Source of the DNA: Candidatus Uhrbacteria bacterium
Lineage (GTDB): Bacteria; Patescibacteriota; Patescibacteriia; UBA9934; GWF2-40-263
Direction: 5' to 3'
NCBI GenBank assembly: GCA_016205975.1
Contig: JACQSK010000005.1
Coordinates: 13,362-77,361, forward strand
DNA length: 64,000 nt
Positions 26,814 through 48,059 of the stretch are shown piece by piece. Position 1 is the first letter of the stretch. Each line of letters begins with the position of its first letter. A program made the translations under genes and the position numbers. The notes under the pieces are model-generated. The model saw only the letters and a program-made list of their open reading frames with translations. It was not told the origin of the DNA and made no database searches.

Positions 26814-26890
26814 TGGTGGGGGTGGATGGACTCGAACCATCGACCATCGAGGTATAAGCTCGACGCTCTGACCAACTGAGCTACACCCCC
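26814..26890 (-). tRNA. tRNA-Ile (anticodon UAU), CCA encoded
   Basis: Manual cloverleaf: 7-bp acceptor GGGGGTG/CACCCCC, D stem GCTC/GAGC, anticodon stem TCGAG/CTCGA with loop CTTATAC (U33, anticodon TAT, A37), T stem GATGG/CCATC, TTCGAGT loop, 77 nt. Confidence 0.8.
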
Positions 26891-30539: not shown

Positions 30540-32252
30540 TTAGATCGATCGCACGTCTTCACCTGAGGCGATGTTCGCGCCCTTCCCGTACTTCCACAAG
30601 TATGTGTCATTCACCTCGATAATCCCTTGGTTCCAGTCAGAGCCGTAGACTTCATCGGCGACGGTCTCACTCACGATCCAGTGGATCTCGTAGTCGGAGC
30701 CCACGACGTAAACCTTCGCGGAGCTCACGGCTTTGACGCGCGTGCCGGGGGCGAACTTGAGGTCGCCCTCATAGTCGGAGGTCTCGACGTATACATCGAT
30801 GGTCGCCTGGCTTACTTCAACGACTTCGTCCCACGAATCAAACCAGGTGAAGTAAACGTCCTCGCTTGGGACAAGCCACATCTGTTCCCCGCTGACCAAA
30901 TACACCGCTGAAGCCCCGTAGGCGCTGAACGCCTCGACCTCATTGCGCACTAGGTCCAAGAGCGGAGAGAATGTAACCTCATAGACGTTGCCGTCCGTCC
31001 CCTGCCAGTAGGCATGCTCACGATCCGAGAGGGTCGCAACGGAGCCGAAGCCGACGTTCAGGAGGCGTCCGTTGGTCGTGTTCTCATACCAGACGTTGCC
31101 GTTCTCGTCGACTCCCACAAGGATGTCCTCAAAGGCATCCGTCACGTGGTAGGCGCGGGTTTCCCAGGCACGAGTGGTGAAGTTGTAACCCACGTACTCA
31201 TCCTGGTCGTTTTGGAAGTAGATGGCATCCCCCGTCAGGTTGAACAGGCCGTCCGTGGCAACGCCCAGCTTGTGGACGCCGTCCAGATCGCTCACGTACA
31301 AACCGTCCTCGTCATCGATGTAGGCCATACGGTCGCCGTCGATCTGAACGGCGTCTGCGACGTCATCAAACCACGTGAGGTACGCACCACCGGCATCCGA
31401 AGGCGCTTCATCAGCCCCTTGGGTATAGGTCCACAAACGGAAGTTGCGGAAGTAACGGATGGAGCCATCGGAGAGGTAATGCGCGCCGACGATGTCCGCG
31501 CCGGGTTCTGTCCAGGTGTCAGGAATCGCTTCCACGGAACGCGCGGTCTGGTTCACAATCCACAGCTGCTCAAAGCCGCCGTCAAAAAATACTTTTACCA
31601 GAGCGTTGCCGTCTTGGACATCCACGATCTCCTGCCACGGTGCGGTCAGCGCATAGGTGAAATCCGTGCGCTCATATCCTGAGCCGTAGTCGTACACGGA
31701 AAGCGCAGTCTCCACGTCGCCCGAATCCTCATCGGTTTGCAGGGTGGACGTGTAGAGGCGGTTGCCGTCGGTGGCAAACGTCATGAAGGACAAGCTGTTG
31801 TCTGCACGCGTGGTCTCAGAGAGCGCCGTCACGGCTCCCGACTCCGTATCGTATTCGTAAATCGTTCCCCAAGTCTCATCCGAGTCCTTCGGGACCAAGT
31901 AGATGAACCGGCCGTCTTGGGCCGTCTGCCAAAAGGCATCCGTCACAGAATCTGAAACGGATGCAATCTCAAGCGAGACACCATCTTTAAAGATGGTCAG
32001 GTCGACCTGCTCGCAGGCATCAGGATCACTGCACGCCTGAGCGGTCGCAGCGACAAACACCGCATCGTTAAATGCGTAGGGGCCAGACGCGCCCGCATCA
32101 AGCGCCAAACGCTCAACACGGAAGGAGTCATAATCCCAGGCCGCTGTGGCAACCGTTGTCTGCCACGCCCCGGAGTCAGCAAAGACGCTGGGGAGCAACG
32201 GGGAGACGCCGATGGCCACGGCCACGGCTAAAATAAGTGTTTTCTTCAACAT
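30540..32252 (-). CDS. secreted repeat protein, beta-propeller-like (hypothetical)
   Basis: Signal peptide MLKKTLILAVAVAIGVSPLLPSVFA; multiple DG..Y / YV..D blade-like repeats; 570 aa. Confidence 0.7.
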   Translation of the reverse strand: MLKKTLILAVAVAIGVSPLLPSVFADSGAWQTTVATAAWDYDSFRVERLALDAGASGPYAFNDAVFVAATAQACSDPDACEQVDLTIFKDGVSLEIASVSDSVTDAFWQTAQDGRFIYLVPKDSDETWGTIYEYDTESGAVTALSETTRADNSLSFMTFATDGNRLYTSTLQTDEDSGDVETALSVYDYGSGYERTDFTYALTAPWQEIVDVQDGNALVKVFFDGGFEQLWIVNQTARSVEAIPDTWTEPGADIVGAHYLSDGSIRYFRNFRLWTYTQGADEAPSDAGGAYLTWFDDVADAVQIDGDRMAYIDDEDGLYVSDLDGVHKLGVATDGLFNLTGDAIYFQNDQDEYVGYNFTTRAWETRAYHVTDAFEDILVGVDENGNVWYENTTNGRLLNVGFGSVATLSDREHAYWQGTDGNVYEVTFSPLLDLVRNEVEAFSAYGASAVYLVSGEQMWLVPSEDVYFTWFDSWDEVVEVSQATIDVYVETSDYEGDLKFAPGTRVKAVSSAKVYVVGSDYEIHWIVSETVADEVYGSDWNQGIIEVNDTYLWKYGKGANIASGEDVRSI

Positions 32253-35275: not shown

Positions 35276-35368
35276 AATCGAACACACTCAAAAAATAAAC
35301 ACGCTGGCAAGGCTATCACAAACAAAAACACAGGGCAAGAGAGGTGCCCCATGTTCATGCCAAATCGA

Positions 35369-36922
35369 TCAGCGCGTTCTCCCCCGATCGTACGCCTCGT
35401 CTTCTGCATTGACGCTGATGCTCTTACAGTCGTTTCCTTGAATGATAGAAAGGAGAGACGCTGGGGCTCCCGTAATATATGAGATCAAACTATCTCCTGT
35501 AATCGTTGGGACATGCGCGGAACACTTCTTTCCTTCCATCCCTTCTTTCTGCGCAACATTGCATGGGTCTGCAGAACAGATGCTGTCTAAAGATTCGTCT
35601 CCGAGATTATACGTTCCGTCGACCATGCCGCCTATAACCTGTTCGAGCGGCACGGTTGCTGACAGATTTGATGCTTGAGGCGTTGTATCGTAATCCTCAC
35701 ATGTATCGATAGCACTGCAATCCATGGTCAGCATCGCGCATGCCCCCTGTTTCCAAGTGTCCAGGTCAAGGGAAGCGGCTGTAAGTAAGAAAGGACTCCC
35801 TGTCCAAAAACATTGTTGGCTGATTTCATTTACGATGTAGCCATTCCTCGTCTGTGGCGCTCCGCCGCTGTACGTCGTCAGTCTAGAAAACTGCGGACAC
35901 AGCGAAGACGATGGAGTGAAATACGGGTTCCCGATGACGAGGCTCTCACAGGTCGTGCACTGCCCGCCAGAGGCAGAGACAAAACACCTTTCACCTTTGC
36001 CTGAACAATAATCATACGTGCACGTCTGTTCTGCAACCGAGTTTCCTTCCCAATCCTTGGTGATCGTCGCCACAGAGCCGCACTCGGTCCCCTTGCTCGG
36101 CTTTTCCACCGTGTACGGTTTACCTCCCTTGGGTGCCGGCTGACCCTGCGCGTGCGGAGAGTCCTCGGGCGCGCCGTTCTGTGTGAGATACGCGGATGTT
36201 CCCCACGTGCCTGTCAGGTACCCGCAGCTCGTTTGTCCCTCCACGAGCGCGACGGTTTTGATCATGGGAAAATCCGGAACCTTCAGTTTCAGCAAGTTGG
36301 GATTCACCGTCGCCAAAATGAAATACGTCGAGAGCAGAAGCACGAGGCCTATCACCCCGTTTGTCATACGCTTCTTGGCTTTGCCCATCAGCTCTGCGCT
36401 GGCCGCGCCAAACGACCATTGCAATCCTCCCACCATGATGAACACGATCGCGATAAGCGTGGCCGCGCCGATCAGCCAATTGTAGACAGCGGCGATGTAC
36501 TCTCCTAAGTCGGCCGGCACTTTGAGCGAACCGATGGAAACTTGCAGCGTGACCTTTGCCGCTTTACTGGAATCAGGGTAGCAGTAGCGTTCGCCTTGCA
36601 TGCATTCTCCTGGCTGGTATTTCGTATCAAGTTTTCCACCCTGGGCCGTACACTCGCTCTCCTTAAAGCACATGACGTGCTCACTGGGCAGCTCGGCGGA
36701 CGATGATGCGCACGCGGCCACGCGAGAGCCATTGGTTTCGCACTTGCTCTGGCATGCCTCGGCCGTGAGCATGCCTTGTCTTTTGGCGCCCGTGCCGTCC
36801 ACGGCGCAGTAGCAGTCGCAGGCCGTCTCAGCCGCCCGGGTGGCAAGCGGCGCGCCAAAGAGAAAACTCATCGCGACGGCGAGGAACAAAAGGCGCATGG
36901 CCCATGGATGAACGGTCGTCAT
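35369..36922 (-). CDS. cysteine-rich secreted/membrane protein with VirB2/TrbC-pilin-like two-helix hydrophobic hairpin
   Basis: Signal peptide MRLLFLAVAMSFLFGAPLATRA. About 35 Cys in 517 aa, including CDCYC and CxxC pairs. Central segment IAAVYNWLIGAATLIAIVFIMVGGLQW...GVIGLVLLLSTYFILATV resembles conjugative pilin VirB2/TrbC topology. Confidence 0.6.
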   Translation of the reverse strand: MTTVHPWAMRLLFLAVAMSFLFGAPLATRAAETACDCYCAVDGTGAKRQGMLTAEACQSKCETNGSRVAACASSSAELPSEHVMCFKESECTAQGGKLDTKYQPGECMQGERYCYPDSSKAAKVTLQVSIGSLKVPADLGEYIAAVYNWLIGAATLIAIVFIMVGGLQWSFGAASAELMGKAKKRMTNGVIGLVLLLSTYFILATVNPNLLKLKVPDFPMIKTVALVEGQTSCGYLTGTWGTSAYLTQNGAPEDSPHAQGQPAPKGGKPYTVEKPSKGTECGSVATITKDWEGNSVAEQTCTYDYCSGKGERCFVSASGGQCTTCESLVIGNPYFTPSSSLCPQFSRLTTYSGGAPQTRNGYIVNEISQQCFWTGSPFLLTAASLDLDTWKQGACAMLTMDCSAIDTCEDYDTTPQASNLSATVPLEQVIGGMVDGTYNLGDESLDSICSADPCNVAQKEGMEGKKCSAHVPTITGDSLISYITGAPASLLSIIQGNDCKSISVNAEDEAYDRGRTR

Positions 36923-36924
36923 AG

Positions 36925-37665
36925 CTATGGCGTCTGAATAATGGACTGCACGATTGCTTCCATCACCTCGGCGGGGATCGCGCCGGCAATGCGGTTGCCA
37001 TTGATGAAAAATGTCGGTGTCCCGCGCACGCCTGCTTCTGCGCCGTCTTTGAGATCCTCTTCGACCTCACTCGCATACCGCCCTGAGGAAAGGCAGCTCT
37101 CAAACTGGTCCACGCGCATGTTGAGCTCCGACGCAAACGCCACAAACGACTCTTGTGTCAGGCTCGACTGATTCTGAAACAGCTTGTCATGATACTCCCA
37201 AAACTTTCCCTGCTCATCCGCGCACTCTCCCGCCTCCGCCGCGAGCTGCGCAAGCGGGTGGAGGTCGGTGAGAGGAAAATCACGATACACATAAAAGACA
37301 TCATCGGGATACTTGGCTGCCAACTCGCGCATCGTGAAGCTTGCCTCTTGCGAGTACGGGCACTGGAACTCAGCGAACTCCACGATCGTCACGCGCGCGC
37401 CTGGATTTCCAAGACTCGGGTCGTCCGTGGTCGTGACATCAAACTCCCCATCAGGTTGCGGGGCGCTGGCAAGCGCAATGCTTGCGGTCAGTTTCTTGGC
37501 AAAGTCGAACGAGGAAAGGTCCAGACCGCCGCTTTTGATTTGGTCGGCAAAGTAGAACACGCGCGCCGCAAACGCGATCACCAACGCCAGGACGGCGAGC
37601 GTTACGATCGTGGCGATCCAACTGCGTCGGCGGTTCTCTTGTCGATCGAGCTCCATGGCTTCCAT
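36925..37665 (-). CDS. membrane-anchored DsbA-family thioredoxin-fold protein with CxxS (CPYS) active site
   Basis: N-terminal TM anchor, EFAEFQCPYSQEA active-site region, C-terminal GTPTFFINGN DsbA motif; immediately downstream of (co-oriented with) the Cys-rich protein. Confidence 0.7.
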   Translation of the reverse strand: MEAMELDRQENRRRSWIATIVTLAVLALVIAFAARVFYFADQIKSGGLDLSSFDFAKKLTASIALASAPQPDGEFDVTTTDDPSLGNPGARVTIVEFAEFQCPYSQEASFTMRELAAKYPDDVFYVYRDFPLTDLHPLAQLAAEAGECADEQGKFWEYHDKLFQNQSSLTQESFVAFASELNMRVDQFESCLSSGRYASEVEEDLKDGAEAGVRGTPTFFINGNRIAGAIPAEVMEAIVQSIIQTP

Positions 37666-37687
37666 ATGGAGAAAAGTATATCATGGG

Positions 37688-37731
37688 AAGGGCGCAGAGG
37701 GGGACAAAGGAAGACAAAGGGCGCAGAGGGG
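37688..37731 (+). repeat. tandem decamer repeat (GGGCGCAGAG GGGGACAAAG GAAGACAAAG GGCGCAGAGG) in the secG/dsbA-like intergenic region
   Basis: Same unit family as the uvrA and GT4 (50498) insertions. Confidence 0.8.
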
Positions 37732-37875
37732 AAAATAAAAAAGTATGGAAAAAATACAAGATCAAGAGGAGGCTCGCGGGAAGCGACGGGAGAAGAAACG
37801 CCGGCCCAGCATGCGAGTGAGTGGGCGCGGGATGAAACGGTTTGCGTCTCCCAACAAAAAGACGGGGAGGAGTCA

Positions 37876-37904
37876 TTGACGAAAGGACTCCTCTTTGATA
37901 GTCT
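37876..37904 (+). promoter_or_regulatory. candidate promoter of secG (TTGACG-N17-TAGTCT with TG extension)
   Basis: One of four instances in the window of TTGACG/N17/(TG)nTAGnnT; predicted TSS ~3 nt before ATG 37914 (near-leaderless). Confidence 0.4.
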
Positions 37905-37913
37905 TTCCTCACT

Positions 37914-43213: not shown

Positions 43214-43741
43214 TCCGAGGATCTGTCTGTAAGCCGAATTTTGTCTGCCCTGATTTCTCAGAGGAGATGGCAATCTATCTAGGCCGTCCATTGCTGGAGG
43301 GCTCAAGCGAGCTACCAAATTTGCTCTTTCACCGGACGAGGGTTTACCACACTCCATGTCACCATGGAGCGAAAGATGTAGCCGATTACTCGACATCACC
43401 TCACTTTTCACGTTTCGTTCTGCACAGCAGAACGACCCTGAGCCTGTCGAAGGGTGCACCCCTCGACGTTGCTCAAGATAGTTTTGCTGCGCAAAACTAG
43501 TATTGTCTCTGTGGCACTTTCCCTAGGCTTTGAGTCAGGAGTCATGGAACAGATTTCTCCAATTCCGCGAGTCCCAATCCTTATACCTGGTCGCCGTTAG
43601 CGACTCTCTTTGGTGTTGTGTCTTGCGACCCAACAGGTGTTCGGACTTTCCTCAATGAATGGAAGTTGGAGACCGACGTCCAATTCCCAACGTCTAACAT
43701 CCAACTTCCATTCATCGTAGCCATCCGACAGTCCTCAGACC
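43214..43741 (-). ncRNA. rnpB: RNase P RNA, bacterial type A, with expanded P3
   Basis: On the minus strand: GAGGAAAGTCCGAACACC (P4 5' strand), GGTAAACCC...GGTGAAAGAGCAAA, GCTTGAGCC...AGCAATGGACGGCCTAGATAGATTGCC and ACAAAATTCGGCTTACAGACAG (P4 3' strand) align motif-for-motif with E. coli M1 RNA, with GUCCGGG/CCCGGC to GUCCGAA/UUCGGC covariation. P1 5' GGTCTGAGGACTGTC pairs with the 3' end. A 63-nt P3 hairpin is present. Ends are approximate (±5 nt). Confidence 0.85.
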
Positions 43742-43791: not shown

Positions 43792-45213
43792 GTGAGGCGT
43801 ATGAAGCGATCTGAACTGGCTTTTACCCTTGCCCTTGTCCCATTTGATTTTTTTGCTCTCATCGCCGCCTCCACGGTCGCATTCTTTGCTCGTTATCTTC
43901 CCGCCTTCACCCAGATCCGTCCTGTCATTTTTAATTTGAACCTTGAGAGCTACCTGGCCGTCGCGGCCCCGACCGCGATTCTGTTCCTCCTGGTTTTTGC
44001 TCTCACCGGCTTGTATAGCACACGGCGTTCTTCCATCGGCCGCGAGCTCTCGCACATCGCGCTCGCCTGCTCCGCATCCATGGCGCTCGTATTTGCGATC
44101 TCCTTTTTCTCGCGTGTCTTGTTCGAGTCGCGCTTCATCGCCCTTGCCGGCTGGGGCTTGGCCATCTTGTTTGTGGCGCTCGAACGTCTAGTCATGCGTG
44201 GGCTCCAGCGATCGCTCCTGCGGTTTGGCATCGGGACGCATCGCGTTGTCGTCATCGGAAAGACGTCTGCCGCCGAGGCGCTCATGGGAGAGTTCACACA
44301 AAAAAAACGTCTGGGCTTCCGAGTCGTGGGTCACTACAAGGATTTTACCAAAGCTCTCGCCAAGGAACTCCGCGACCTGAAACGGAACGATAAAATAGAC
44401 GAGATCATTCTGGCAGATCCTGAGGCTTCCCGACAGGAAACGCTCGAGATCATCGCCTTCACGGAACAGGAACACTTGGGCTTCCGCTACTGCGCCGATC
44501 TCTTTACCGCCGCGATCGGCCGCTCTGTCATCCATACCTACGCCGGCATCCCCGTGATCGAAGTACAAAAGACGCCGCTCGACGGTTGGGGAGCGATCTA
44601 CAAACGCATCTTCGACGTGGCGGCTTCCCTTCTCCTGATCCTCCTCGCCTCCCCGATCATGCTGATCACAGCGCTCGCGATCAAACTCGATTCACGTGGC
44701 CCCATCTTTTTTGCGAGACTCGACGATGGAAGTCTGTCACGACGTGTGGGTCAAGGCGGACGGCCGTTCACCTACTTTAAGTTCCGCTCCATGCGACCTG
44801 GCACGCATGCTCTGCGCTACAACGAACTCGCCGCCGCTGATACACGCCACGGCTCGCCGCTCGTGAAGATCAAGGACGATCCGCGCGTGACGTGTGTCGG
44901 AAAATTCATTCGCAAATTTTCGATCGACGAGCTCCCTGAATTCTTCCTGGTCCTGCGCGGGCATATGAGTCTTGTCGGCCCACGCCCCCATTTACCCGAG
45001 GAAGTCGATCGATACAAACCTGAACAACGCAAGGTTCTCACGATCAAGCCTGGTATCACAGGCATGGCACAAATCTCCGGCCGTGCTGATCTCAATTTCG
45101 ACGACGAGGTGCGTCTAGACACCTACTACATTGAACACTGGAGTCCGTGGCTCGACCTCTATATTCTCCTCAAAACTCCTCTGGTTGTTCTCTTTGGAAG
45201 AGGTGCATCTTGA
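43792..45213 (+). CDS. polyprenyl-phosphate hexose-1-phosphate transferase (bacterial sugar transferase, WbaP/CpsE-type priming enzyme)
   Basis: C-terminal [30 protein letters not shown] (PF02397 signature); N-terminal TM bundle; 473 aa. Apparent leaderless start (extended -10 TGATAGACT ends 8 nt before ATG). Confidence 0.85.
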
Positions 45214-46199
45214 GAGCGTAACCATCACAATGTTCCAGCAGTCCCATATACGACGGCATGTTCTCGAGAGTAACCTTCTTGAACATCCGTCGTTTTGTTT
45301 TTGTGCGCAGGACACGGTGGTGTGAGAGTGTAACGTAGCCAAGAAAGTCGATGCCTTGTCCGAGCTTGCGAATCTCAACCTTGTGAGGATGGAGCGTCAA
45401 TCGTCGTTCACTCCAAAGCCATTGTTCAATGAACGGCAGGAGCCATCGGAGCTCAGCAGGATCGTTTGCAAGAATAACCGCGTCGTCTGTGTAGCGAAGA
45501 TACTGCTTCACCTGAAGTTCGTCTTTAATAAAGTGGTCGAATGCGTCCAGGTAGATATTCGCAAATAGCTGGCTGGTCAGATTCCCGATGGGAAGTCCCG
45601 TTGTGTTTGAAGTTCCTAGAGAGCACCCCCCCCCCGACGGAATTTGAAGTTGAGTAACTCCCGACGATGTCGGAGAGAAGTTGTTCGGCTCTCCCCCTTC
45701 CCAAGGGGGAGCTGGAAGAGGTTGCCGTTGCCAGCTTCTTGTACAAAATGTTCATCAAAATCTCGTGATCCACCGAATCAAAAAACTTCCTGATATCGAA
45801 CTTGAGCGCCCAGCAAGGTCTCGTGTTGTTTCGACTTACCTGACGAGTGAACTGCTCTAAACGGTCAACCGCTGCATGTGTCCCCTTCCTTGTTCGACAC
45901 GAATAACTGTCGAAAATAAACGAACGGTCAAACACCGGATACAACACTCGATACACTGCATGGTGTACCAATCGGTCACGGACGGTTGCTTTGTGGATGA
46001 TCCGATGTTTGGGATCAAAAATGTGGAAACGATGGTAAGAGCCATGACGATACCGGCCATTAAGATCGTCGTGAAGCAAGAAGACGTTGTCCTCCAGGTG
46101 TCGTTCAAACTCCTGGACGTCCTGCCTCGACCGCTTGCCACGTCGAAACTCTCGCCAGGCGGCAAAGAGATTCTCTAAGGAAATGATTTGATTGAACAT
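45170..46199 (-). CDS. diversity-generating retroelement reverse transcriptase (bRT-like), interrupted by a frameshift at a C10 tract (45626-45635)
   Basis: N-terminal ORF (46199-45525) carries RT motifs 1-3: FDPKHRIIHKATVRDRLVHHAVY, FDSYSCRTRKGTHAAVDRL, FDIRKFFDSVDHEIL. The second frame, open from 45751, carries motifs 4-5: GLPIGNLTSQLFANIYLDAFDHFIKDELQVKQYLRYTDDAVIL. This is near-identical in pattern to Bordetella phage bRT (GLPLGNVTSQLFANVYL...YLRYVDDFLLL). The two halves are in different frames. Confidence 0.85.
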
Positions 46200-46535
46200 A
46201 TGAACTCAACTCCAGCATTTCAAAAATCTTATGACTTCTATAAGAACCTCTATCTCAACCTTCGGCAGATTCCCAAACGGGATCGGTTCACCTGGGGCGA
46301 GAGGTGTGAAACATTGGCTATAGACCTTCTCTCAAGACTTTCAAAGGCAACCTATGCTCCACGCCAAATACAACGTTTGTCTTTGCTAGAGGCAAGTGAT
46401 CTCATCGATCGATTAAAAATTTACCTCCGACTTGGGGCTGATCTAAAAATTCTTGACCAAAAGAAATACTTCTCCAGAGTAAGTGAGCTGATCGAGCTTG
46501 GAAAAATGATCGGGGGATGGCTCAAGACTGTCTAG
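46200..46535 (+). CDS. avd: DGR accessory variability determinant (Avd, four-helix-bundle protein)
   Basis: 111-115 aa; YDFYKNLYLNLRQIPKRDRFTWGERCETLAIDLLSRL ... ELIELGKMIGGWLKTV matches the bAvd pattern (Y..L...IPK..R...L, C-terminal IGr.LGsWI). The ATG at 46200 abuts the RT ATG (CATATG at 46197-46202). Track start is a TTG at 46188. Confidence 0.7.
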   Translation: MNSTPAFQKSYDFYKNLYLNLRQIPKRDRFTWGERCETLAIDLLSRLSKATYAPRQIQRLSLLEASDLIDRLKIYLRLGADLKILDQKKYFSRVSELIELGKMIGGWLKTV

Positions 46536-46540
46536 AACAG

Positions 46541-46666
46541 CCGAGGAGGCGGAAGCCCACGTTGTCGTTGGGATTGTTCGACCAGTTCCTGTTCACGCTA
46601 GCGAGCCCACCGTTGTCACGGTTGCCGACGATCACGCGGTTGTCAGAACCGTAGGCGTTTTGGCTC
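46541..46666 (-). repeat. DGR template repeat (TR); sense strand = minus
   Basis: 126 bp near-identical to 46963-47088. On the minus strand it encodes ...AYGSDNRVIVGNRDNGGLASVNRNWSNNPNDNVGFRLLG, with AAC/AAT (Asn) codons at the positions that differ in the VR. Confidence 0.85.
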
Positions 46667-46952
46667 TCGCCTCCTCATTGTCCTTGTCCATCTATACGCA
46701 CTACATAAAGGTAACTAGTCCCTCATGCTGAAAGCCAAGCTAGGCTCACTGTTGCCCCAAGGCAACCTCTGTTTGGCGGCAGGATTTTCATCCACCCGCT
46801 CCAGACAAGGACAAGCAGTTCTCTTCGTATCCCTAAACTTAGGGAGAAGCGGCGACCCATGGCCTTAACACATGGGTGCACGAGCCAACTTCAACCGCAT
46901 TGTATCAAAAAGAAAAAGGATCCAAGGTTCCAAGAACCAAGGATCCAAGCGT

Positions 46953-47867
46953 CTAGAGAACGCCGAGGAGGCGGAAGCCCACGCCGCCGTTGGGAACGTC
47001 CGACCAGTCCCTGCGCACGCTAGCGAGCCCACCGTTGCCACGGCCGCCGACGATCACGCGGCTGCCCGAACCGTAGGCGCTTTCGGTCCATTCCCACGAG
47101 GCCGTGGCGCCGAGGTCAGGGAACTCCGTTCCATGGAGTCGGTTGAGCTCCAACAGGATGTTCCCGAAGAAGTTCCACTCCTCCGCGGTGAGCGGCCGCA
47201 CCGCCGCCTTCTTGAGACCCCAGAGCTGAGCCGTCAGCGGGCACAGGGTGGCGCGCAGATGATCCCAGGAAACCCTAAAACGGGACTGGAGGTTGAGCTC
47301 GCGGGTGAGCCGATCGTCCCCGTATCCCTCGGGGTCGTTCCAGTCGGGCTTCCTGATGAGCTCAGCCACGACCCACCGTCCGGGCAGGGGGTGGCGCTTG
47401 ATGAGGCTCGCATCGATGTGCTGACCCAAGTCGGAGCGGATCCATGTGTTGGAGTAGACATCCTGGGTGATGGCCGCGGGAAGGAGGATCGGGAGCAAGC
47501 TCCCGTCGTCGATCCAGCCGCGAGTCTTCGTGCTGATGCGCGGAAGAGCCGGCACCACGACCTCAAGCGCCCCGAACTTCTGGGCGTAGAACTCGCTCCA
47601 GAACACACGGGGGTCACCCGCGATCCGACGCAGGAGCGCCTCGGTCACGGAGACACTGAGCGGATCTTCCACCGACGCCTTGGACGCGAGCTGGGTCTTC
47701 ACCCAGGCATCGAGCATCGCGGGGTCGATCAGCCCGCGAGCGAGCGCTTCGCCCAGCGGCATGGTGACCGCATAAGCGCCGAGCAGGCCGCCCAGACCGG
47801 CGGGGCTGATGTGGTCGCGCCTACGCAGGATCTCGTCGATCCAGGAAGGCAACCCTTCGAGTGCCAT
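46953..47867 (-). CDS. DGR target protein with C-terminal FGE-sulfatase / C-type-lectin-fold variable domain; no signal peptide
   Basis: C-terminal PLTAEEWNF...WEWTESAYGSGSRVIVGG...GFRLL matches the FGE-like (PF03781) DGR-target pattern (LPTEAEWEYA ... GNVWEW ... GFR). Start ATG 47867 has RBS AAGGAG-6nt; track start 47900 is upstream. Confidence 0.8.
   Translation of the reverse strand: MALEGLPSWIDEILRRRDHISPAGLGGLLGAYAVTMPLGEALARGLIDPAMLDAWVKTQLASKASVEDPLSVSVTEALLRRIAGDPRVFWSEFYAQKFGALEVVVPALPRISTKTRGWIDDGSLLPILLPAAITQDVYSNTWIRSDLGQHIDASLIKRHPLPGRWVVAELIRKPDWNDPEGYGDDRLTRELNLQSRFRVSWDHLRATLCPLTAQLWGLKKAAVRPLTAEEWNFFGNILLELNRLHGTEFPDLGATASWEWTESAYGSGSRVIVGGRGNGGLASVRRDWSDVPNGGVGFRLLGVL
46963..47088 (-). 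repeat. DGR variable repeat (VR) at the 3' end of the target gene
   Basis: About 15 of ~18 mismatches to the TR occur where the TR sense strand has A (plus-strand T to C/A/G). Encodes ...AYGSGSRVIVGGRGNGGLASVRRDWSDVPNGGVGFRLLGVL*. The GC-rich identical 3' block GGGCTTCCGCCTCCTCGGC is IMH-like. Confidence 0.85.
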
Positions 47868-48059
47868 AATCTTCTCCTTCCCTTGCGACTCTCCCACCAC
47901 TCTTTACAGACGGATTGGTAGGTGCTTGCAAAGGACGAACGCACACGGTTCCGCCGTGCCGGTGTGAGTACAAAACCGGGGATTTCCGGTTGTGCAAACG
48001 ACTGGAGAATATACTCCTGTTTGGCGGAAAAGTCAAGAATTGCTAGGATGGCTCCACGT

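What the first reader, a model, noticed from the sequence alone, without database searches (positions are those of the whole stretch)
35369..37665. Cys-rich secreted VirB2/TrbC-like protein paired with a membrane-anchored CxxS DsbA-family protein
The 517-aa protein carries ~35 cysteines in CxC/CxxC clusters around a pilin-like two-helix hydrophobic hairpin. It is co-oriented with, and immediately precedes, a DsbA-fold protein whose active site is CPYS rather than CPHC. Single-Cys thioredoxin folds act as isomerases or chaperone-like holdases, not oxidases. The pair looks like a dedicated substrate/folding-factor module, possibly for a pilus-like or adhesive surface structure.
Basis: partly seen in the sequence, partly recalled or inferred. 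Interest (0 to 1): 0.55.

Follow-up and report, generated by a model that had tools for sequence, protein, structure and literature searches.

The report
Folding helper plus cysteine-rich surface protein
An uncultivated ultra-small bacterium (Candidatus Uhrbacteria) has a two-gene unit: a membrane-anchored DsbA-type enzyme that has lost one of its two catalytic cysteines, directly followed by a membrane-hairpin surface protein with 26 conserved cysteines. The same pairing recurs in dozens of related genomes, which points to a dedicated disulfide-shuffling helper for one hard-to-fold protein.

Summary
Both ORFs exist at the stated coordinates, on the minus strand. The transcription order is DsbA-like (37665->36925), a 2-nt gap, then the Cys-rich protein (36922->35369). 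A terminator-like hairpin follows, then uvrA. The Cys-rich protein has 26 cysteines, not ~35. It has a signal peptide, a 10-Cys N-domain, a two-helix hairpin that passes Pfam T4SS_pilin (PF18895), and a 16-Cys C-domain with no detectable fold relatives. The DsbA-like protein has a confident DsbA fold, an N-terminal anchor, CPYS, Thr-cisPro and a helical-domain Cys pair.

Comparative evidence is strong. All 26 Cys are conserved in 53 homologues. In 28 metagenome loci and 6 of 8 genome loci, a CxxS/T DsbA sits immediately upstream of such a protein. Only 1 of 80 canonical CxxC DsbA relatives does. The CxxS proteins form one pure clade. A second, CxxC-type DsbA clade is linked to a paralogous hairpin protein that carries a VanY peptidase domain, in a different gene context and once on the same contig.

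Best reading: a dedicated monothiol disulfide isomerase or escort for a 13-disulfide, hairpin-anchored surface protein. A true T4SS pilus role is not supported: no T4SS genes are nearby and homology to VirB2 proper is weak. I rate it a new variant of known kinds, of moderate interest.

The parts
36925..37665 (-). DsbA-family gene (246 aa) with a monothiol CPYS active site; first gene of the pair
   Evidence: Pfam Thioredoxin_4 E 1.3e-27 and DSBA E 1.6e-21. AlphaFold2 model pLDDT 87.7. Foldseek top hits are C. diphtheriae DsbA 4pwp, 3gyk, BdbD, TsdA, ScsC and BcfH at E 1e-10 to 1e-8. 100% identical to a protein NCBI names 'DsbA family protein [Candidatus Uhrbacteria bacterium]'.
37555..37629 (-). 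N-terminal transmembrane anchor of the DsbA-like protein (residues 13-37), preceded by a basic stretch (RQENRRR); this places the catalytic domain outside the cell
   Evidence: Kyte-Doolittle maximum 2.57. The model shows a long N-terminal helix 2-45. Translation checked. Orientation is inferred from the positive-inside rule.
37351..37362 (-). Active-site tetrad C102-P-Y-S105 (TGC CCG TAC TCG)
   Evidence: C102 and S105 are invariant in 37 homologues. CPxS occurs in 108 of the 120 best database homologues.
37015..37020 (-). Thr216-Pro217, the cis-proline loop next to the active site
   Evidence: Invariant 'TP' in all 144 DsbA relatives that cover this column.
37093..37224 (-). Cys148 and Cys191 in two helices of the inserted helical domain; probably a structural disulfide
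   Evidence: Both Cys are present in 137 of 145 aligned relatives, including CxxC members. They lie in helices 139-151 and 185-194 of the model. Pairing is inferred.
35369..36922 (-). Cys-rich T4SS_pilin-family gene (517 aa, 26 Cys); second gene of the pair
   Evidence: 100% identical to 'hypothetical protein HY631_00940 [Candidatus Uhrbacteria bacterium]'.
36833..36922 (-). Signal peptide (residues 1-30, ending ATRA|AE)
   Evidence: Hydrophobic core at residues 6-30. Helix 6-22 in the model. The AAE motif precedes the first conserved Cys in the alignment. The cleavage site is inferred.
36548..36832 (-). N-terminal ectodomain (residues 31-125) with 10 conserved Cys
   Evidence: Cys35/37/39/57/61/71/85/91/107/114 are conserved in 44-53 of 53 homologues. 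Model pLDDT is 80-89 here. The domain is homologous to the N-domain of the VanY-bearing paralogous family.
36290..36517 (-). Two-helix membrane hairpin (residues 136-211) with a basic loop (KAKKR)
   Evidence: PF18895 match at residues 141-202, found in 23 of 23 homologues. Helices 136-174 and 176-206 in the model. Hydropathy peaks.
35372..36247 (-). C-terminal ectodomain (residues 226-517) with 16 conserved Cys; fold unknown
   Evidence: Cys conservation 49-53 of 53. No Pfam or PDB sequence match. No Foldseek match at E <= 0.001 in PDB or BFVD.
35326..35356 (-). Terminator-like hairpin (12-bp stem followed by a T-rich tail) 13 nt after the stop codon and before uvrA
   Evidence: This is a consensus match only, and the total number of such sites in the region is not above the shuffled expectation.
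37666..37913 (.). 248-nt divergent intergenic region between the DsbA-like gene and secG; presumed promoter region
   Evidence: No sigma-70-like consensus was found, so this is inferred from gene arrangement only.

Best explanation
The two genes form a bicistronic unit in a Candidatus Uhrbacteria (Patescibacteria/CPR) chromosome.

Gene 2 encodes a surface protein. After signal-peptide cleavage it is held in the membrane by a VirB2-like (T4SS_pilin family) helical hairpin, with the basic loop in the cytoplasm. Both flanking domains are therefore outside the cell. They carry 10 + 16 cysteines and most likely form 5 + 8 disulfides.

Gene 1 encodes a type-II-anchored, outward-facing DsbA-fold protein. 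It keeps the nucleophilic Cys102, the Thr-cisPro loop and the structural disulfide, but the resolving Cys is replaced by Ser. It therefore cannot store an internal disulfide and cannot act as a classical oxidase.

The most likely mechanism is as follows. The Cys102 thiolate attacks wrongly paired disulfides in the emerging ectodomains and forms a mixed disulfide. That bond is resolved by a substrate cysteine. This is disulfide isomerisation or covalent escorting, as in the CxxS PDI relatives Eug1p, ERp44 and AGR2. Oxidising equivalents would come from elsewhere: a second, CxxC-type DsbA module seen in related genomes, or the environment.

Shown here: gene anatomy, fold, family membership, Cys conservation, gene linkage, and the clade-specific CxxS state. 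Inferred: topology, disulfide formation, isomerase or escort chemistry, the substrate relationship, and the final role of the surface protein (envelope or host-contact ectodomain rather than a polymerised pilus).
For: (1) Tight coupling. The gap is 2 nt in the window and -32 to +11 nt in 28 metagenome loci. Independent gene calls on a relative's contig give a 1-nt gap. A terminator-like hairpin follows gene 2.

(2) Linkage specific to the active-site state. In a scan seeded with the DsbA protein alone, 6 of 8 CxxS/T proteins are immediately followed by a Cys-rich hairpin protein. One of the two exceptions is a contig that ends inside the gene. Only 1 of 80 CxxC relatives shows this.

(3) The 31 non-redundant CxxS proteins form a pure neighbour-joining clade. 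Ser105 and Cys102 are invariant.

(4) Linkage recurs in another gene context. A distinct clade of 216-aa CxxC DsbA proteins sits directly upstream of a paralogous hairpin protein between clpC and radA. One 141.5-kb contig carries both modules (L021 and L043).

(5) All 26 Cys are conserved at 83-100% in 53 homologues. The modal mature count is 26, and the count is even in 41 of 53.

(6) Both proteins are predicted to face outward.

(7) The DsbA fold is confident.

(8) CxxS thioredoxin folds cannot carry oxidising equivalents, are suited to shuffling, and need a CxxC partner in the cell (Eug1p; PMC2195995).

(9) Dedicated DsbA paralogues co-expressed with one fimbrial substrate are precedented: SrgA/PefA, and BcfH with isomerase activity (PMC8405906).
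Against: There are no biochemical data. Within Uhrbacteria the order secG-dsbA-X-uvrA could persist by vertical inheritance alone. This DsbA-like protein might be the lineage's only, general-purpose envelope thiol enzyme.

A few homologous Cys-rich genes lack an upstream DsbA: L031/L032 in the secG-uvrA slot, and L045 and L080 in other contexts. Group-3 relatives have even more cysteines (35-72) but mostly keep CxxC DsbA, located 2-3 kb away. A high Cys load therefore does not by itself demand CxxS.

No CxxC DsbA, VKOR or DsbB was seen in the 64-kb window, so the source of oxidising power in this organism is unknown.
Confidence: 0.5

Rival explanations
1. The DsbA-like protein is a general housekeeping envelope oxidoreductase. 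It serves all secreted proteins of the cell, and its adjacency to the Cys-rich gene is inherited synteny in a conserved secG-uvrA neighbourhood, not a dedicated partnership.
For: The pair sits among housekeeping genes: secG, uvrA, RNase J, TrpRS and RNase P RNA. The secG/uvrA flanks are conserved across most group-1 loci. Only one DsbA-like gene is present in the window.
Against: A separate DsbA clade is linked to a paralogous hairpin protein in an unrelated context, clpC-radA, so the linkage outlives the neighbourhood. Gene overlaps or gaps of a few nt suggest co-translation. A CxxS enzyme cannot be a general oxidase. One related contig carries two DsbA modules.
Confidence: 0.2
2. The DsbA-like protein is a covalent retention or assembly partner. 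Its single Cys forms a long-lived intermolecular disulfide with the hairpin protein, as in ERp44/AGR2-type thiol-mediated retention. This holds or positions the protein at the membrane rather than catalysing shuffling.
For: There is a single reactive Cys with an invariant Ser. Both proteins are membrane-anchored and face outward. A minority of homologues (12 of 53) have an odd Cys count.
Against: The window protein and most homologues have an even number of Cys (26), and all of them are conserved. That leaves no obvious free partner cysteine.
Confidence: 0.12
3. The Cys-rich protein is a genuine VirB2-type pilin that polymerises into a T4SS pilus decorated with disulfide-rich domains, and the DsbA-like protein is a pilus-assembly factor. 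This would be analogous to the thioredoxin-like TraF/TrbB of F-type systems (own knowledge).
For: PF18895 passes the gathering threshold in 23 of 23 members. Eight also touch TrbC/VirB2 at E <= 0.1. VirB2-like pilins are widespread and sometimes essential in Patescibacteria (PMC12102498). One relative has tandem duplicated copies (L002), reminiscent of the pilin arrays described there.
Against: No T4SS gene was found among the window's large ORFs scanned with Pfam or in the contexts of related loci. Comparison with genuine VirB2 is weak: probability 7%, TM1 only. The protein is 517 aa with ~95- and ~290-aa globular domains on both ends of the hairpin, against ~70-120 aa for known pilins. The same scaffold carries a VanY peptidase in paralogues.
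Confidence: 0.1
4. The cysteine clusters bind metals (Zn, Fe-S or Cu) rather than forming disulfides, and the CxxS protein handles metal or thiol protection, like the ScsC copper-resistance DsbA-likes.
For: The CxCxC and CxxC spacings could bind metal. ScsC proteins are among the structural neighbours.
Against: Both Cys-rich domains are extracytoplasmic. No His or Asp co-conservation is evident among the invariant columns. The DsbA fold partner and even Cys counts fit disulfides.
Confidence: 0.05

Closest known systems
DsbA-family oxidoreductases of monoderm bacteria: C. diphtheriae DsbA/TsdA/MdbA, A. oris MdbA, B. subtilis BdbD
   Same: Same fold: thioredoxin with an inserted helical domain. 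They share the N-terminal membrane anchor, the Thr-cisPro loop, and an extracytoplasmic role. These are the best sequence and structure matches in the PDB. MdbA is required for folding of pilins in Actinobacteria (PMC5478893).
   Different: All of them have a CxxC dithiol and act as oxidases recharged by VKOR or BdbC. Here the resolving Cys is Ser in a whole clade. No recharging partner is seen in the window.
Substrate-dedicated DsbA paralogues encoded next to fimbrial genes: Salmonella SrgA/PefA and BcfH in the bcf operon
   Same: A DsbA-like gene co-located and co-expressed with one surface-fibre substrate. BcfH has isomerase activity (PMC8405906). BcfH is among the structural hits.
   Different: Those are CxxC enzymes (CPPC, CSWC) of diderm periplasm, and they serve chaperone-usher fimbriae. 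Here the enzyme is a CxxS protein in a CPR bacterium, and it serves a hairpin-anchored 26-Cys protein.
Natural CxxS members of the PDI family: yeast Eug1p; ERp44 and AGR2 (the last two from own knowledge)
   Same: A monothiol active site that keeps the N-terminal Cys. It cannot carry oxidising equivalents, is suited to shuffling or mixed-disulfide escort, and depends on a CxxC enzyme elsewhere (PMC2195995).
   Different: These are eukaryotic ER proteins with a PDI-type architecture and no homology beyond the thioredoxin fold. The resemblance is mechanistic only.
VirB2/TrbC conjugative pilins and the Patescibacteria VirB2-like pilins (Pfam PF18895)
   Same: A two-helix hydrophobic hairpin with a short basic loop after a signal peptide. 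The window protein is a scoring member of PF18895. This family was used to count VirB2-like pilins in 1,948 Patescibacteria assemblies (PMC12102498).
   Different: The protein is 517 aa, with large disulfide-rich ectodomains on both sides of the hairpin. It is not next to virB4 or any other T4SS gene. It scores below threshold for PF04956 and matches real VirB2 only weakly.
Paralogous CPR module: CxxC DsbA (216 aa) plus N-Cys-domain/hairpin/VanY-M15 peptidase protein (loci L033-L070)
   Same: The signal peptide, N-terminal Cys domain and hairpin are homologous (hhalign probability 100%, E 1.5e-43 over residues 12-231). The upstream-DsbA arrangement is the same.
   Different: The C-terminal domain is a D-Ala-D-Ala carboxypeptidase fold instead of the 16-Cys unknown domain. 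The DsbA keeps CxxC. The context is clpC...radA.

Membership tests
DsbA family (Pfam DSBA PF01323 / Thioredoxin_4 PF13462) | Profile match above the curated threshold | tested here: met
   Thioredoxin_4 97.4 bits (cut-off 23.2); DSBA 77.4 bits (cut-off 25.6).
DsbA family (Pfam DSBA PF01323 / Thioredoxin_4 PF13462) | Thioredoxin fold with an inserted alpha-helical domain | tested here: met
   AlphaFold2 model pLDDT 87.7. 187 PDB matches at E <= 0.001, topped by DsbA, BdbD, TsdA and ScsC structures.
DsbA family (Pfam DSBA PF01323 / Thioredoxin_4 PF13462) | Catalytic CxxC dithiol able to hold an internal disulfide | tested here: not met
   The site is CPYS. CxxS is invariant in the clade. It is a fold and family member but not a classical DsbA oxidase.
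DsbA family (Pfam DSBA PF01323 / Thioredoxin_4 PF13462) | Cis-proline loop adjacent to the active site | tested here: met
   Thr216-Pro217 is invariant in all aligned relatives that cover the column. The cis conformation itself was not checked.
DsbA family (Pfam DSBA PF01323 / Thioredoxin_4 PF13462) | Extracytoplasmic location | tested here: met
   A single N-terminal TM helix preceded by a basic cluster. Orientation is inferred from the positive-inside rule.
DsbA family (Pfam DSBA PF01323 / Thioredoxin_4 PF13462) | Membrane re-oxidation partner (DsbB/VKOR/BdbC) in the genome | not testable with these tools
   Only 64 kb of the genome is available. No second thioredoxin-fold gene is in the window. 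VKOR and DsbB were not specifically searched genome-wide.
T4SS_pilin (Pfam PF18895; VirB2-like pilins of Patescibacteria and monoderms) | Profile match above the curated threshold | tested here: met
   29.8 bits against a cut-off of 26.6. All 23 homologues match, best E 3.5e-14.
T4SS_pilin (Pfam PF18895; VirB2-like pilins of Patescibacteria and monoderms) | Signal peptide followed by a two-helix hydrophobic hairpin with a short basic loop | tested here: met
   Hydropathy. Model helices 136-174 and 176-206. The loop contains KAKKR.
TrbC/VirB2 pilin proper (Pfam PF04956) | Profile match above threshold, or significant profile-profile similarity to genuine VirB2 | tested here: not met
   PF04956 E 0.38, 11.4 bits against a cut-off of 27.9. 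Eight of 23 homologues reach E <= 0.1. hhalign against four annotated VirB2 proteins gives probability 7%, P 0.005, 38 columns; the reversed control gives P 0.065.
TrbC/VirB2 pilin proper (Pfam PF04956) | Small protein (~70-120 aa) encoded within a T4SS gene cluster (virB3/virB4 neighbours) | tested here: not met
   The protein is 517 aa. Its neighbours are secG, an SBP_bac_5-type binding protein, uvrA, RNase J and TrpRS. Pfam scans of the large ORFs of the window found no VirB4/VirB6/VirD4.
TrbC/VirB2 pilin proper (Pfam PF04956) | Polymerises into an extracellular filament | not testable with these tools
   Needs microscopy or biochemistry.
Monothiol (CxxS) thioredoxin-fold isomerases/escorts (Eug1p, ERp44, AGR2 type) | CxxS motif that keeps the N-terminal nucleophilic Cys | tested here: met
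   CPYS, with Cys102 and Ser105 invariant.
Monothiol (CxxS) thioredoxin-fold isomerases/escorts (Eug1p, ERp44, AGR2 type) | A CxxC oxidase co-exists in the same cell | tested here: inconclusive
   One related 141.5-kb contig carries both a CPYS module (L021) and a CEAC module (L043). None is seen in this window.
Monothiol (CxxS) thioredoxin-fold isomerases/escorts (Eug1p, ERp44, AGR2 type) | Isomerase or mixed-disulfide activity on a Cys-rich client | not testable with these tools
   Needs enzyme assays or trapping experiments.

The most novel reading that the evidence does not exclude
CPR bacteria such as Uhrbacteria may run a minimal, substrate-wired oxidative-folding system. It would use two clades of anchored DsbA proteins, one CxxC (oxidase-type) and one naturally monothiol CxxS (isomerase or escort-type). 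Each is hard-wired by operon to its own member of a family of VirB2-hairpin-anchored, disulfide-rich ectodomain proteins. That would be the first natural CxxS DsbA clade with a defined client. It would also be a bacterial counterpart of the Eug1p/ERp44/AGR2 logic, in organisms thought to lack quinone-linked DsbB/VKOR recharging. The client could be a core cell-surface or host-contact structure of these epibionts.
Probability: 0.35. Interest if true: 0.65.

Novelty: new variant of a known kind. Interest (0 to 1): 0.5.

Why it matters
Oxidative protein folding in Patescibacteria/CPR is essentially undescribed. Full-text searches found no paper that combines these organisms with DsbA. The 2025 survey of their T4SS pilins does not mention disulfides or DsbA.

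A whole clade of DsbA proteins that has given up the resolving cysteine, always next to the same 26-Cys client, gives a clean natural test case. It can show how monothiol thioredoxin folds work outside the eukaryotic ER, and how disulfide-rich surface proteins are made in tiny cells with little redox machinery.

The client family is large: 304 clusters at 50% identity with E <= 1e-30. It is conserved in a core chromosomal slot and has no known fold relatives. It is therefore a candidate for an important but uncharacterised envelope or host-contact component.

The work also cautions against counting every PF18895 hit as a T4SS pilin. The hairpin here and in the VanY-bearing paralogues behaves like a modular membrane anchor.

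Tried and rejected
(1) Fold assignment of the Cys-rich domains. The AlphaFold2 model (pLDDT 71) searched against PDB and BFVD gave no match at E <= 0.001, only generic helical hairpins. A PDB sequence-profile search gave nothing meaningful. Pfam on all 23 homologues gave only the hairpin.

(2) Direct homology to VirB2. I verified a recalled A. tumefaciens VirB2 sequence against annotated plasmid genes (99%) and built a 4-sequence alignment of real VirB2. hhalign gave only probability 7%. Both profiles are shallow, so this is not a strong negative.

(3) T4SS context. None was found in the window or in the paralogous module, whose neighbours are clpC, a beta-propeller protein, radA and recG.

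(4) Gene fusion as a Rosetta stone. L011 has one 748-aa ORF spanning both genes. The pilin part keeps its own Met and signal peptide, and the fused topology would be inconsistent. This is probably a lost stop codon or a sequencing error, so I did not use it as evidence.

(5) Homology of the C-domain to the VanY domain of the paralogues: rejected.

(6) Selenocysteine at position 105, suggested by a weak NCBIfam selenoprotein-family hit: rejected, because the codon is TCG.

(7) Cys-pair co-loss analysis. Too few losses to infer connectivity; only 37/39 and 301/313 are co-lost, twice each.


Full report
WHAT IS THERE. The window is a chromosomal piece of a Candidatus Uhrbacteria bacterium (Patescibacteria/CPR). 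Both proteins are 100% identical to NCBI entries from that taxon, named 'hypothetical protein HY631_00940' and 'DsbA family protein'. Both ORFs lie on the minus strand. The DsbA-like gene runs 37665->36925 (246 aa). Its TAG stop is followed after 2 nt by the ATG of the Cys-rich gene, 36922->35369 (517 aa). Thirteen nt after that gene's stop lies a 12-bp-stem, T-tailed hairpin (35356-35326). uvrA starts 81 nt downstream of the stop. Upstream, a 248-nt gap separates the pair from the divergent secG. In transcription order, therefore, the DsbA-like gene comes first.

THE CYS-RICH PROTEIN. It has 26 cysteines, not ~35. That is 5.0% of residues against 0.77% in 26 other large ORFs of the window (P = 1.2e-13). 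Its layout is:
- a signal peptide (residues 1-30, ...ATRA|AE);
- an N-domain of ~95 aa with 10 Cys;
- two long hydrophobic helices (136-174 and 176-206) joined by a basic loop (KAKKR);
- a ~290-aa C-domain with 16 Cys.

With the signal peptide cleaved and the basic loop inside the cell, both Cys-rich domains face outward (inferred). The hairpin passes Pfam T4SS_pilin (PF18895) at 29.8 bits against a cut-off of 26.6. All 23 close homologues also pass, with best E 3.5e-14. TrbC/VirB2 (PF04956) is sub-threshold (E 0.38); 8 of 23 homologues reach E <= 0.1. hhalign against four annotated VirB2 proteins gives only probability 7%, P 0.005. Neither Cys-rich domain has a detectable relative in Pfam, in PDB sequences, or by Foldseek in PDB or BFVD. 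The model has pLDDT 71 overall and 80-89 in the N-domain.

THE DsbA-LIKE PROTEIN. Its features are:
- an N-terminal anchor (residues 13-37) after a basic cluster;
- a confident DsbA fold (pLDDT 87.7);
- best structural neighbours C. diphtheriae DsbA/TsdA, 3gyk, BdbD, ScsC, BcfH, alpha-DsbA and MdbA;
- the active site C102-P-Y-S105 (TGC CCG TAC TCG);
- the Thr216-Pro217 loop;
- Cys148 and Cys191 in two helices of the inserted domain. This pair is present in 137 of 145 relatives and probably forms a structural disulfide.

IS THE PAIRING REAL? Three independent lines say yes.

(i) Seeding with the Cys-rich protein in metagenome contigs returned 80 loci. In the ~30 loci with full-length relatives, the order is secG | DsbA-like | Cys-rich | uvrA, with gaps of -32 to +11 nt. 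Every one of these DsbA-likes is CxxS: CPYS, CPFS, CTFS, CSFS or CEYS. Independent gene calls on another contig show the same order with a 1-nt gap. The exceptions are L029, where the contig starts inside an upstream Cys-rich ORF, and L031/L032, which have no DsbA in the slot.

(ii) Seeding with the DsbA-like protein alone in species-representative genomes returned 80 loci across Bacteria and Archaea. Of 8 CxxS/T proteins, 6 are followed at once by a Cys-rich hairpin protein. The other two are a truncated contig and one CPFT protein. Of 80 canonical CxxC proteins, only one is, itself from an Uhrbacteria genome in the same secG-uvrA slot.

(iii) In a neighbour-joining tree of 139 non-redundant catalytic domains, the CxxS proteins form a pure clade of 31. 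Thirty are hairpin-adjacent, and for one the contig is cut. CxxS/T also arose separately in L076 and L145.

Synteny inside one lineage could be simple inheritance, so a second observation matters more. A different clade of 216-aa CxxC DsbA proteins (21 tips, also pure) sits directly upstream of a paralogous hairpin protein in a different neighbourhood (clpC ... radA, recG). One 141.5-kb contig carries both modules (L021 CPYS; L043 CEAC).

THE CLIENT FAMILY. All 26 Cys are conserved at 83-100% in 53 non-identical homologues. The modal mature count is 26, and the count is even in 41 of 53. The protein itself diverges faster than its neighbours: 26-67% identity, against 46-77% for the DsbA-like protein and 69-88% for UvrA. 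A profile search of 1.84 billion cluster representatives finds 304 at E <= 1e-30 and 6,841 at E <= 1e-10.

The paralogous family shares the signal peptide, N-Cys domain and hairpin (hhalign probability 100%, E 1.5e-43 over residues 12-231). Its C-terminal domain is a VanY/Peptidase_M15 fold instead (see also P0029 and P0031). The hairpin plus N-domain thus looks like a modular anchor that displays exchangeable ectodomains. No T4SS gene was found among the window's large ORFs scanned with Pfam, or next to the paralogues.

MECHANISM. A CxxS thioredoxin fold cannot form the internal disulfide needed to donate oxidising equivalents, but it is suited to shuffling. Yeast Eug1p rescues a pdi1 deletion only when a CxxC homologue is present (PMC2195995). 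By analogy, Cys102 would attack mispaired disulfides in the emerging ectodomains, and a client cysteine would resolve the mixed disulfide. A client with 13 disulfides has an enormous number of wrong pairings. A co-translated, membrane-tethered isomerase or escort next to the translocon therefore makes sense. Oxidation would come from the CxxC module or the environment (inferred).

Dedicated DsbA paralogues encoded beside one fibre substrate are known: SrgA/PefA, and BcfH with isomerase activity (PMC8405906). So is DsbA-dependent pilin folding in monoderms: MdbA with VKOR (PMC5478893). All DsbA active sites tabulated in that review are CxxC.

RIVALS. The rivals are a general housekeeping oxidoreductase with inherited synteny (0.2), a covalent retention partner (0.12), a true decorated T4SS pilus (0.1), and metal binding (0.05).

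NOVELTY AND VERDICT. The substrate/folding-factor reading is well supported by comparative genomics but untested biochemically. The pilus reading is weak. Both components belong to known superfamilies (DsbA fold; PF18895). The clade-wide natural CxxS DsbA hard-wired to a 26-Cys hairpin-anchored client appears undescribed in the literature searched, as does the parallel CxxC module. I rate it a new variant of a known kind, interest 0.5.

Noticed in passing
window 45170-47900: A diversity-generating retroelement. The reverse transcriptase is split into two minus-strand ORFs: 45525-46199 (RVT_1 N-part) and 45170-45511 (RVT_1 C-part with YTDD). There is a bAvd accessory gene at 46188-46535 (PF22296, E 1.6e-14). 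A 127-nt repeat pair lies at 46540-46666 and 46962-47088, 86% identical. Almost all mismatches are T in the first copy on the + strand, i.e. A in the template repeat on the minus strand. The variable copy lies at the C-terminal end of minus-strand ORF 46953-47900 (315 aa, no Pfam hit). The overlapping + strand ORF 46872-47921 is probably spurious.
   Followed up: partly
L074 3457-8585; also L065 and L067: In more distant CPR relatives, a hairpin protein with 35-72 cysteines lies downstream of the gamma and alpha subunit genes of a pyruvate/2-oxoacid:ferredoxin oxidoreductase. In L074, the only locus scanned with Pfam, the next gene encodes the TPP-binding beta subunit. A CxxC DsbA gene lies 2-3 kb upstream, next to secG. 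This is an odd place for a surface-protein gene.
   Followed up: partly
L043 5338-7347; similar in L033-L070: A paralogous module: a 216-aa CxxC DsbA directly upstream of a protein with the same N-Cys domain and T4SS_pilin hairpin fused to a VanY/Peptidase_M15 (D-Ala-D-Ala carboxypeptidase) domain. It lies between clpC and radA/recG. This suggests that PF18895 hairpins anchor cell-wall enzymes and that not all PF18895 hits are pilins.
   Followed up: partly
L002 3766-7482: One relative has the CPYS DsbA followed by two tandem Cys-rich paralogues (488 and 494 aa, 26 Cys each) before uvrA.
   Followed up: no
L011 5248-7494: A single 748-aa ORF spans the DsbA-like (CSFS) and Cys-rich genes in frame. 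The second part keeps its own Met and signal peptide, so this is probably a lost stop codon or an assembly error rather than a functional fusion.
   Followed up: partly
L131 5836-7367: In another Uhrbacteria genome, the same secG-uvrA slot holds a canonical CPFC DsbA followed by a short (259 aa) hairpin protein. That protein lacks the N-domain and has a 12-Cys C-domain. It may be a simpler or ancestral state of the module.
   Followed up: partly
window 26814-26890: A tRNA-Ile with anticodon TAT (UAU), an uncommon way of reading AUA in bacteria.
   Followed up: no
window 43214-43688: A bacterial class A RNase P RNA spanning 475 nt against a 367-position model. It scores only just above the gathering threshold (108.3 against 100 bits), which implies sizeable insertions.
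   Followed up: no
window 30540-32252 (minus strand): A 570-aa ORF directly downstream of uvrA with no Pfam match. A 570-aa gene with no recorded Pfam hit occupies the same position in a relative's contig, so it is probably a conserved unknown gene.
   Followed up: no
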